A DNA stretch of 41,868 bases from a virus (lineage: Duplodnaviria > Heunggongvirae > Uroviricota > Caudoviricetes): positions 1 through 41,868 of the IMG/VR virus record IMGVR_UViG_2974481312_000001; one strand, 5' to 3'. Shown piece after piece: positions 914-1,279 of this stretch. A model generated the notes under the pieces. The model worked only from the letters and a program-made list of their open reading frames with translations, searched no databases and had not been told where the DNA came from. Numbering within the stretch: the first letter of the stretch is position 1; each line of letters starts with the position of its first letter. The position numbers and the translations under genes are program-made.

Positions 914-937
914 AAAGAAAGGGGCCATCAGGCCCCT
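911..937 (-). terminator. Rho-independent terminator after the HTH gene, possibly bidirectional
   Basis: Hairpin AGGGGCC-ATCA-GGCCCCT (920-937) followed on the minus strand by a U-rich tract (911-919). Confidence 0.5.
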
Positions 938-1146
938 GTATCACCAAAGCTTAACCATCGAGGGTCAACACCGAGAGCATCGGCAATGTGGAAGATTTTA
1001 AAACAGTCTACCTTACACACCCGACCGGTTGCCAGATGGGTAATAAGGCTTTGGGATACGCCAGCTTTGAAAGCAAGCTCAGTTTGACCCATGCCGATTT
1101 CTTTGCGGCGGCGCTCTATGCGGGCGCCTAATTCGGATTGCTGCAT
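928..1146 (-). CDS. XRE/Cro-CI-type HTH transcriptional regulator (72 aa)
   Basis: HTH segment QTELAFKAGVSQSLITHL; AAGGAG RBS upstream of ATG at 1146; transcribed opposite to the surrounding replication genes. Confidence 0.8.
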   Translation of the reverse strand: MQQSELGARIERRRKEIGMGQTELAFKAGVSQSLITHLATGRVCKVDCFKIFHIADALGVDPRWLSFGDTGA

Positions 1147-1175
1147 ATGTTTACTCCTTAGTTAGATATGTAGTA

Positions 1176-1204
1176 ATAGTACAGTAATAAAATACACGGT
1201 GCAA
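1176..1204 (-). promoter_or_regulatory. Sigma70-like promoter for the HTH regulator (TTGCAC-17-TACTAT)
   Basis: -35 at 1204..1199 and -10 at 1181..1176 on the minus strand; spacer carries a TAATAG element. Confidence 0.5.
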
Positions 1205-1219
1205 TTTACGAAAAAGTGC

Positions 1220-1248
1220 TTGCATAAATAATAGAGTACGATTATAGT
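1220..1248 (+). promoter_or_regulatory. Sigma70-like promoter for the rightward operon (TTGCAT-17-TATAGT)
   Basis: -35 1220-1225, 17 nt spacer containing TAATAGAGTAC, -10 1243-1248; gene starts at 1280. Confidence 0.5.
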
Positions 1249-1279
1249 TATTATCACCAGCTAAACAGGAGAATGCACA

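What the first reader, a model, noticed from the sequence alone, without database searches (positions are those of the whole stretch)
928..1279. Opposite-strand XRE-type regulator embedded in the replication operon with back-to-back promoters
A 72-aa Cro/CI-type HTH gene is transcribed against the flow of the replication genes. Its promoter and the rightward promoter for the next genes lie back to back within 133 bp, and both spacers contain the TAATAG element, an arrangement reminiscent of a small genetic switch. In a phage lacking integrase, CI-like repressor or excision functions, this may control early-to-middle timing or a pseudolysogenic or carrier state.
Basis: partly seen in the sequence, partly recalled or inferred. 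Interest (0 to 1): 0.45.

Follow-up and report, generated by a model that had tools for sequence, protein, structure and literature searches.

The report
Cro-like repressor with genome-wide operators

Summary
The window is a complete Jerseyvirus genome, 99.9% identical to Salmonella phages f2SE/f3SE and the same length as f18SE. ORF 928-1146(-) encodes a 72-aa HTH_3/HTH_31 protein whose best solved relative is phage 434 Cro. It lies between a terminator and a 133-bp region with back-to-back sigma70-like promoters. The gene is a known core gene of Guernseyvirinae, annotated as "XRE regulator" or "repressor".

The genome holds 5 perfect and 2 one-mismatch copies, against 0.09 expected. Every copy overlaps the spacer or -10 of a promoter, in three different registers. 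The two sites flanking the regulator gene are the weakest copies.

Kagunavirus, phiEap-2 and Otaku carry the same core (AATAG-N4-CTATT) at equivalent promoters. The XRE protein is the only predicted DNA-binding protein shared by all of them.

Best reading: a Cro-type dimeric repressor, autoregulated, that acts on a phage-wide set of operators. No CI partner and no bistable switch are present. Binding, timing and any carrier state are untested. This is an ordinary kind of system; the regulon appears undescribed.

The parts
928..1146 (-). 72-aa XRE / 434 Cro-like HTH protein gene (monocistronic)
   Evidence: ORF. Pfam HTH_31 and HTH_3 above cut-off. Best PDB match is 434 Cro, E 1.4e-8, residues 6-69 against 4-65 of 71. 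100% identical protein in Jersey, LPSE1 and others, annotated as repressor or XRE.
911..937 (-). Intrinsic terminator of the XRE transcript: hairpin 937-920 followed by UUUCUUUUU. On the + strand the same hairpin has no U-tract.
   Evidence: Terminator scan. Folding gives -16.8 kcal/mol (minus strand) and -15.8 kcal/mol (plus strand). Annotated as a terminator in SETP3 and PVP-SE2.
1174..1189 (.). O_L: imperfect operator, TATTACTGTACTATTA on the minus strand (2 mismatches). It overlaps the -10 of the XRE promoter.
   Evidence: Invariant in 11 Jerseyvirus loci. The Kagunavirus equivalent TAATATGGTACTATTC has 1 mismatch in 25 of 25 loci.
1176..1204 (-). P_left (XRE promoter): TTGCAC-17-TACTAT
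   Evidence: Same register as the promoters at 38561 and 39605.
1220..1248 (+). P_right: TTGCAT-17-TATAGT, driving orf1280 and the downstream replication genes
   Evidence: Same register as P3823 and P8033.
1229..1244 (.). O_R: operator TAATAGAGTACGATTA (1 mismatch) in the spacer of P_right
   Evidence: The same mismatch (TAATCG half) is conserved in 11 of 11 Jerseyvirus loci; the site is perfect in 25 of 25 Kagunavirus loci.
1280..1816 (+). First gene of P_right: 178-aa acidic protein of unknown function (PHROG 3127; annotated in relatives as '13.88 kDa late protein')
   Evidence: Conserved next to the XRE gene in K1G, ZS, VSiP, phiEap-2 and Otaku.
3823..3851 (+). Promoter TTGACA-17-TATATT with perfect operator 3832-3847. 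Drives the DUF2815 SSB-like gene and DNA polymerase.
   Evidence: The same 26 bp are annotated as 'promoter' in SETP3.
8033..8061 (+). Promoter TTGATA-17-TATATT with perfect operator 8042-8057. Drives orf8096 and the helicase cluster.
19639..19678 (.). Two overlapping divergent promoters (+: TTGCAT-17-TATTAT; -: TTGACG-17-TATTAA) placed symmetrically about perfect operator 19651-19666
36223..36251 (-). Promoter TTGACT-17-TATATT for the nin-like, terminase and head genes, carrying only the right half-site (CTATTA; + strand TAATAG 36227-36232)
   Evidence: The same half-site-only architecture is present in K1G.
38530..38561 (-). Promoter TTGACG-18-TACTAT with perfect operator 38530-38545. Drives leftward small genes, holins and endolysin.
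39575..39605 (-). Promoter TTGCGT-17-TACTAT with perfect operator 39575-39590. Drives leftward small early-region genes.
40078..40106 (+). Promoter TTGATT-17-TATACT for the HTH_17 gene, orf40305 and primase-helicase. No operator. This transcription converges on the XRE gene.

Best explanation
The gene encodes a Cro-type (434 Cro-like) single-domain HTH repressor of a virulent Jerseyvirus.

Proposed mechanism:
- The protein acts as a dimer and binds the 16-bp dyad (T/G)AATAG-N4-CTATT(A/C).
- Each copy of the dyad overlaps the spacer and/or -10 hexamer of a sigma70-type phage promoter, so binding occludes RNA polymerase.
- Five promoter regions carry perfect operators: the SSB-like/polymerase promoter, the helicase-cluster promoter, the divergent pair at 19.6 kb, and two leftward small-gene promoters, one of which also serves the lysis genes.
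- The regulator's own promoter has the weakest copy (2 mismatches). The divergent P_right has 1 mismatch.
- The protein would therefore shut down the strong promoters first and limit its own synthesis last. That is negative autoregulation plus a global turn-down of early and middle transcription, as Cro does at PL and PR of lambdoid phages.
- Two promoters would largely escape: the operator-less promoter of the primase-helicase operon, and the promoter of the terminase/head operon, which has only a half-site.

Status of each step:
- Shown: the protein family, the existence, statistics, placement and conservation of the palindromes, and the phyletic pattern.
- Inferred: that this protein is what binds them, that binding represses, and the order of events.
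For: (1) Family. HTH_3 and HTH_31 score above their cut-offs. The best solved relative is 434 Cro over the full length, at 43-48% identity. In IMG/VR, the lambdoid homologues with the 434 recognition helix sit behind the canonical ACAA-N6-TTGT operators.

(2) The operator is real. There are 5 perfect and 2 one-mismatch copies against 0.09 expected, and none in simulations.

(3) It is a module separate from the promoter hexamers. It occurs in three registers relative to the -35 (offsets of 3, 6 and 9-10 nt). Across 11 Jerseyvirus and 25 Kagunavirus loci the half-sites are invariant while the central 4 bp vary.

(4) Geometry. The half-site centres are 10 bp apart. The dyad is centred at about -18, -15 or -12, inside the RNA polymerase footprint, and the spacers are already the optimal 17 bp. 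That fits repression rather than activation.

(5) Guilt by association. Two sites flank the regulator gene and overlap both divergent promoters. In both genera the regulator's own site is the most degenerate.

(6) Phyletic profile. AATAG-N4-CTATT-type sites occur at equivalent promoters in K1G (6 perfect against 0.03 expected), phiEap-2 and Otaku. The XRE protein is the only predicted DNA-binding protein present in all of them. HTH_17 is found only in K1G, Rha/ANT in none, and the NinH-like protein is absent from Otaku.

(7) Recognition helix. It starts S/T-Q in every AATAG-type phage. eiAU-183, with S-R-P, lacks that palindrome and has others.
Against: - No binding or expression data exist for this protein.
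- The operator core is conserved across phages whose XRE proteins are only 28-50% identical, so a more conserved reader (a host factor or another phage protein) is not excluded.
- Cornellvirus-type genomes (ZS, VSiP) keep an XRE with a helix very like the Jerseyvirus one but have only degenerate, asymmetric sites.
- In eiAU-183 the five-copy palindrome is not the one next to its XRE gene.
- The tail-gene promoter also carries a perfect operator. A simple 'early off, late on' scheme does not explain that.
- The only transcriptome of a relative (Kagunavirus K1B4, PMC12645636) reports one HTH gene as early and one DNA-binding gene next to the AAA gene as middle. I could not tell which of the two is the XRE homologue.
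Confidence: 0.6

Rival explanations
1. The palindromes are read by something else: a host transcription factor common to enterobacteria, or another phage protein such as the NinH-like ORF 35452-35679. The XRE protein would then only autoregulate locally, or would target host genes.
For: - The operator core is conserved across hosts and genera although the XRE proteins have diverged to 28-50% identity.
- The NinH-like protein is 59-70% identical in K1G, ZS, VSiP and phiEap-2 and gives a weak NinH hit.
- Cornellvirus keeps a similar XRE helix but has only poor palindromes.
Against: - The NinH-like protein is absent from Otaku, which still has AATAG-type sites at equivalent promoters, and its Pfam hit is below the cut-off.
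- I could not recall any enterobacterial factor with an ATAG-N4-CTAT dyad. This rests on memory and was not tested.
- The dyad length and spacing fit a 434/P22-type HTH dimer.
- Two sites flank the XRE gene itself.
Confidence: 0.17
2. The shared sequence is only a copied promoter cassette with no dedicated regulator, and the XRE protein has an unrelated role.
For: - The right half-site overlaps the -10 (CTATTAtATT), so part of its conservation is due to promoter function.
- SETP3 annotators labelled the same 26 bp simply as 'promoter'.
Against: - The left half-site has no role in sigma70 recognition yet is invariant.
- The dyad symmetry is exact in 5 sites.
- The element sits in three different registers.
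- The central 4 bp and the flanks drift while the half-sites do not.
Confidence: 0.06
3. The protein is an immunity-type silencer. By occupying nearly every promoter it can hold the phage genome, or a superinfecting one, silent. That would give superinfection immunity or a reversible carrier/pseudolysogenic state.
For: - Operators lie at almost all strong promoters, including the early leftward ones.
- The regulator's own operator is weak, so its synthesis could persist.
- Remnants typical of temperate phages are present (HTH_17/excisionase-like, Rha/ANT).
Against: - There is no integrase, partition or plasmid-maintenance gene and no CI partner.
- The family is consistently described as strictly lytic (PMC4599075, PMC9409062).
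- A search of the paper library found no report of a carrier state for Jerseyviruses.
Confidence: 0.1

Closest known systems
Phage 434 Cro (PDB 2CRO/3CRO/1ZUG)
   Same: - Single-domain HTH protein of about 71 aa.
- 43-48% identity over the full length.
- The gene is preceded by dyad-symmetric sites that overlap its own promoter and a divergent promoter.
- Half-site centres are about 10 bp apart.
- The expected action is repression by occlusion, plus autoregulation.
   Different: - The recognition helix is SQSLITH rather than KQQSIQL, and the operator is TAATAG-N4-CTATTA rather than ACAA-N6-TTGT.
- There is no divergent cI gene and no tripartite OR.
- The host phage is virulent.
- Operators are dispersed over at least 8 promoters instead of being confined to OL and OR.
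Multi-operator phage repressors (P1 C1; mycobacteriophage L5 gp71 'stoperators')
   Same: One small repressor is presumed to act at many sites scattered over the phage genome, each tied to a promoter or transcription unit (from general knowledge).
   Different: - Those are lysogeny-maintenance repressors of temperate phages, with asymmetric sites.
- No sequence relationship was tested or is expected.
- Here the sites are symmetric and the phage is lytic.
Controller (C) proteins of restriction-modification systems
   Same: Small XRE-family dimers that bind palindromic boxes in their own promoter and act as concentration-dependent timers (from general knowledge).
   Different: - No restriction or methylase gene lies next to this gene.
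- The sites overlap the core promoter, so no activating position is seen.
- The regulon is phage-wide.
The annotated 'XRE family regulator / repressor' core gene of Guernseyvirinae (e.g. SETP3 gp43, UPWr_S gp55)
   Same: It is the same gene. The protein is 96-100% identical in 327 phage records and is listed as one of three regulatory core genes in PMC8425127.
   Different: Those records and papers give only the domain annotation. I found no description of the palindromic operator family or of a regulon.

Membership tests
XRE / Cro-CI helix-turn-helix family (Pfam HTH_3, HTH_31) | Domain match above the curated score cut-off | tested here: met
   HTH_31 scores 31.3 bits (cut-off 27) and HTH_3 scores 30.6 bits (cut-off 23). 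PHROGs 4, 8 and 3 are 'transcriptional repressor/regulator'.
434 Cro-type small repressors | Single-domain protein of about 70 aa, alignable end to end with 434 Cro, with no C-terminal oligomerisation or peptidase domain | tested here: met
   72 aa. Residues 6-69 align with 4-65 of the 71-aa 434 Cro, E 1.4e-8. Identity is 47.6% in tblastn.
434 Cro-type small repressors | Five-helix globular fold | tested here: inconclusive
   The single-sequence AlphaFold2 model has mean pLDDT 55 and pTM 0.27 and shows only three helices. It is too poor to compare, so the fold is inferred from sequence identity only.
434 Cro-type small repressors | Dimer binding to dyad-symmetric operators that overlap promoters | not testable with these tools
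   Candidate operators exist with the right symmetry, spacing and placement. Binding itself needs EMSA or footprinting.
Lambdoid CI/Cro bistable immunity switch | Divergently transcribed antagonist repressor (CI) sharing a tripartite operator | tested here: not met
   The divergent gene is orf1280, of unknown function (PHROG 3127), with no HTH. No second XRE or S24-peptidase protein was found among the proteins scanned. There are only two sites in the intergenic region, 55 bp apart.
Type II toxin-antitoxin XRE antitoxins (HigA/MqsA-like) | Co-transcribed toxin gene next to the HTH gene | tested here: not met
   The gene is monocistronic. Its promoter is at 1176-1204 and its terminator at 911-937, and the flanking genes are on the other strand.
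Restriction-modification controller (C) proteins | Genetic linkage to a restriction endonuclease or methyltransferase operon | tested here: not met
   The neighbours are primase-helicase, orf1280, an HNH homing endonuclease and an exonuclease.
Guernseyvirinae core XRE regulator | Orthologue present next to the replication module, at a divergent promoter region, across the subfamily | tested here: met
   Present in K1G, ZS, VSiP, phiEap-2 and Otaku, and also in Eiauvirus eiAU-183. Named a core gene in PMC8425127.

The most novel reading that the evidence does not exclude
A phage family regarded as strictly lytic, and widely used for Salmonella and E. coli biocontrol, carries a complete single-repressor silencing circuit: one Cro-like protein with operators on nearly every promoter. 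Under some conditions this circuit could hold the incoming genome, or a superinfecting one, transcriptionally silent. The result would be homo-immunity or a reversible carrier state without integrase or CI.
Probability: 0.1. Interest if true: 0.7.

Novelty: new member of a known kind. Interest (0 to 1): 0.36.

Why it matters
Jerseyviruses and Kagunaviruses are among the phages most often isolated and applied against Salmonella and E. coli. Their 'repressor' annotation regularly raises safety questions about lysogeny.

Two points follow from this analysis. First, the gene is a Cro-type regulator with no CI partner, which argues against classical lysogeny. Second, a defined 16-bp operator on about eight promoters gives a concrete and cheap experimental handle on how a host-RNA-polymerase-dependent virulent siphovirus orders its transcription. 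EMSA, reporter fusions and supplying the protein in trans would all be informative.

If the protein really is a global repressor, expressing it in trans should protect cells from the whole phage group, and operator mutations could be used to tune phage gene expression.

Tried and rejected
- The generic promoter/terminator scan of 700-2000 gave promoter counts no better than chance, so I did not use it as evidence on its own.
- The repeat finder on the intergenic region found nothing relevant, because the arms are too short.
- Searching the palindrome at 3 mismatches is uninformative (19 found, 16.9 expected). Only the 0-1 mismatch level is significant.
- Literature searches found only domain-level annotation and no operator description. 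One search was wasted on over-broad terms. The primary MB78 papers behind the '13.88 kDa late protein' label are not in the library.
- The K1B4 temporal transcriptome (PMC12645636) could not be mapped to the XRE gene, because the phage gene table is not in the held supplements.
- Rfam gave no hit anywhere in the window.
- The single-sequence AlphaFold2 model was too poor to use, so no fold search was run.
- I considered the HTH_17 protein (40138-40308) and the Rha/ANT protein (21421-22092) as the operator reader and rejected both. They are missing from relatives that keep the operator.
- The NinH-like protein is weakened as a candidate by its absence from Otaku.
- Toxin-antitoxin, R-M controller and CI/Cro-switch memberships were considered and rejected on gene context.
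- An RNA-level role for the palindrome was rejected because most copies lie upstream of the predicted transcription start.

Full report
**What the window is.** The region 700-1900 matches 435 phage records and is 99.9% identical to Salmonella phages f2SE, f3SE and fSE4S. f2SE is filed under species Jerseyvirus f18SE. The window length, 41,868 bp, equals the published f18SE genome (PMC4599075). The window is therefore a whole, circularly permuted Jerseyvirus genome (Guernseyvirinae) that starts inside the primase-helicase gene.

**Check of the observation.**
- ORF 928-1146 on the minus strand encodes 72 aa, with an AAGGAG ribosome-binding site.
- It matches Pfam HTH_31 and HTH_3 above their curated cut-offs.
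- The gene is convergent with the primase-helicase gene (stop at 911-913) and divergent from orf1280. orf1280 is followed on the + strand by an HNH endonuclease, a DUF2800 exonuclease, a DUF2815 SSB-like protein and DNA polymerase.
- A G+C-rich hairpin at 920-937 followed by UUUCUUUUU terminates the minus-strand transcript. On the plus strand the same hairpin has no U-tract. Primase-helicase transcripts may therefore read through as antisense RNA to the regulator. This last point is inference.
- In the 133-bp intergenic region, the best promoter candidates are TTGCAC-17-TACTAT leftward (1204-1176) and TTGCAT-17-TATAGT rightward (1220-1248). Their -35 hexamers lie back to back, 15 bp apart.
- TAATAG occurs at 1174 and 1229. 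One copy is in the rightward spacer. The other overlaps the leftward -10.

**What the TAATAG element really is.** In the genome-wide list of TAATAG hits, five pairs lie exactly 10 bp apart on opposite strands. They are perfect copies of the 16-bp palindrome TAATAG-N4-CTATTA, at 3832, 8042, 19651, 38530 and 39575.
- At up to one mismatch there are 7 copies against 0.09 expected from shuffles. First-order Markov simulations gave no perfect copy.
- The site at 1229 (TAATAGAGTACGATTA) has one mismatch. The site at 1174 (TATTACTGTACTATTA on the minus strand) has two.
- Every copy lies inside a sigma70-like promoter, in one of three registers:
  - 3 nt after the -35, with the -10 (TAtATT or TAtAGT) starting in the last two bases of the palindrome. 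This applies to 1229, 3832 and 8042.
  - 9-10 nt after the -35, with the -10 TACTAT inside the right half. This applies to 1174, 38530 and 39575, all on the minus strand.
  - 6 nt after the -35 at 19651, where two overlapping divergent promoters are arranged symmetrically about one palindrome.
- The leftward promoter at 36251-36223, which heads the nin-like, terminase and head genes, has only the right half-site.
- The promoter of the HTH_17, orf40305 and primase-helicase operon (40078-40106) has no copy.

**Why this is an operator and not just a promoter cassette.**
- Dyad symmetry plays no part in sigma70 recognition.
- The left half-site lies in the spacer.
- The element shifts register between promoters.
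- In 11 Jerseyvirus and 25 Kagunavirus loci from IMG/VR, the half-sites are invariant while the central four bases vary (AGTA, TCTA, TTAA; CGAA, TGAA, CTAA, CAAA, CGAG, CTCG, TTTG).
- The mismatches of the two sites next to the regulator gene are themselves conserved. O_R is always TAATCG...CTATTA in Jerseyviruses. The regulator's own site is the most degenerate in both genera.
- SETP3's annotators marked the same 26 bp at the SSB-like gene simply as 'promoter'.

**Who reads it.**
- The protein's best solved relative is phage 434 Cro: E 1.4e-8, aligned almost end to end, 43-48% identity.
- Among IMG/VR homologues, those with the 434 recognition helix (KQQSIQL) sit behind the textbook ACAA-N6-TTGT operators. 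This shows the family's usual layout.
- The 16-bp dyad here has half-site centres 10 bp apart, as expected for such a dimer (established knowledge of 434 and P22 repressor-operator complexes).
- Relatives carry the same core:
  - Kagunavirus K1G (XRE 50% identical) has six perfect AATAG-N4-CTATT copies against 0.03 expected, at the equivalent promoters and in the same registers, plus TAATATGGTACTATTC on its XRE promoter.
  - phiEap-2 (28% identical) has eight AATA(G/C)-N4-(G/C)TATT copies.
  - Otaku (48% identical) has AATAG/AGTAG-type sites, including a perfect one in the same register before its SSB-like gene.
- A tblastn profile of all f18SE proteins shows that the XRE protein is the only predicted DNA-binding protein present in all these phages. 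The HTH_17 protein occurs only in K1G, the Rha/ANT protein in none, and a weak NinH-like protein is missing from Otaku.
- The recognition helix begins S/T-Q in all AATAG-type phages: SQSLITH, SQGAINQ, SQGRVSH, SQGMLNH and TQSAISH.
- Edwardsiella phage eiAU-183 has SRPFISQ, lacks the AATAG dyad, and has other palindromes: GTTAA-N6-TTAAC at five promoters, and GTAAAT-TG-ATTTAC beside its XRE gene.
- Together these results make the XRE protein the best candidate reader. They do not prove it.

**Caveats.**
- Cornellvirus-type genomes (ZS, VSiP) keep a very similar helix but have only degenerate, asymmetric sites such as TAATAC-N4-CTAATC.
- In eiAU-183 the abundant palindrome is not the one next to the XRE gene.
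- Conservation of the core across XRE proteins that are only 28-50% identical would also fit a more conserved reader.
- The tail-gene promoter carries a perfect operator, so a simple 'early off, late on' scheme is incomplete.
- The one transcriptome of a relative (Kagunavirus K1B4, PMC12645636) calls one HTH gene early and a DNA-binding gene next to the AAA gene middle. I could not determine which is the XRE homologue.

**Most likely mechanism (inferred).**
- A Cro-type dimer binds the dyads centred at about -18, -15 or -12 of promoters that already have near-consensus hexamers and 17-bp spacers. Binding should exclude RNA polymerase.
- Perfect operators would fill first. These are at the replication, small-gene (one of which also serves the lysis genes) and 19.6-kb divergent promoters.
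- O_R would fill next, and the regulator's own O_L last. The outcome is a global turn-down with negative autoregulation, analogous to Cro at PL and PR.
- The operator-less primase-helicase promoter and the half-site promoter of the terminase/head operon would be least affected.
- Convergent read-through from the primase-helicase operon might further modulate synthesis of the regulator.

**Comparative anatomy.** In Cornellvirus, phiEap-2, Otaku and eiAU-183, the XRE gene heads the primase-helicase operon and diverges from the remaining replication genes. In Jerseyvirus and Kagunavirus the primase-helicase module is inverted. That leaves the XRE gene alone, 'embedded' and convergent with it.

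**Comparison with what is known.**
- The gene is a member of the XRE/Cro family and a close relative of 434 Cro.
- It is not part of a CI/Cro bistable switch: there is no CI and no tripartite operator.
- It is not a toxin-antitoxin antitoxin, because the gene is monocistronic.
- It is not an R-M controller protein, because there is no R-M linkage.
- In the dispersal of its sites it resembles multi-operator repressors such as P1 C1 or L5 gp71, but those belong to temperate phages and are unrelated.
- The gene is already annotated as XRE regulator, repressor or DNA-binding protein in hundreds of records and is named a regulatory core gene in PMC8425127.
- I found no description of the operator family.

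**Verdict.** The 'small genetic switch' reading is only partly right. The thing is a Cro-like repressor of a lytic phage, with a previously unremarked phage-wide set of palindromic operators. It is a new, well-defined member of a familiar kind. It is of moderate interest, chiefly because the phage group is heavily used in biocontrol and the hypothesis is cheap to test.

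Noticed in passing
window 39545-40137: A 593-bp non-coding stretch lies between the divergent promoters at 39605(-) and 40078(+). It contains G+C-rich hairpins (for example around 39775-39796) and has no Rfam match. It could hold an origin, a packaging site or an unannotated small RNA.
   Followed up: partly
window 19639-19678: Two sigma70-like promoters on opposite strands overlap almost completely and are mirror-symmetric about one perfect palindrome (19651-19666). RNA polymerase could use only one at a time, and a single bound dimer would block both.
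   Followed up: partly
window 1885-2406 and 9705-10190: HNH (+AP2) homing-endonuclease genes. The first is inserted between orf1280 and the DUF2800 exonuclease and overlaps that gene's start. It is absent at that position in SETP3.
   Followed up: partly
window 4592-7690: The DNA polymerase ORF is 1032 aa, against about 727 aa in Kagunavirus K1G. The roughly 300 extra residues (an insertion, intein or extra domain) were not examined.
   Followed up: no
window 10407-10432, 21312-21337, 22097-22122 (and a variant at 4553): A repeated terminator-like palindrome family AAGGCCCC-N4-GGGGCCTT at module boundaries. The same family occurs in K1G, ZS, VSiP and phiEap-2.
   Followed up: no
window 21421-22092 and 30847-31497: A Rha/ANT antirepressor-like gene, and a KilA-N gene on the opposite strand inside the structural module. 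The KilA-N gene has its own operator-less promoter, TTGCAT-18-TATAAT. Both genes are absent from six relatives compared, so they look like lineage-specific acquisitions.
   Followed up: partly
L087 (Edwardsiella phage eiAU-183) 13209, 14854, 27758, 28101, 42907: Five promoters (TTGCAA-17-TATAGT type) are each followed immediately by the palindrome GTTAA-N6-TTAAC and a conserved leader (5 copies against 0.02 expected). This is a different phage-wide operator-like element in a related virulent siphovirus.
   Followed up: partly
L005, L006, L086, L087, L088 versus the window: The primase-helicase module is inverted in Jerseyvirus and Kagunavirus relative to Cornellvirus, phiEap-2, Otaku and eiAU-183. 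In those four the XRE gene is the first gene of that operon.
   Followed up: yes
window 40061-40083; K1G (L004) about 36640-36680, minus strand: Just upstream of the operator-less HTH_17/primase-helicase promoter there is a lone AATAG half-site. In K1G it forms AATAG-N11-CTATT, a wider-spaced inverted repeat. Its meaning is unknown.
   Followed up: no
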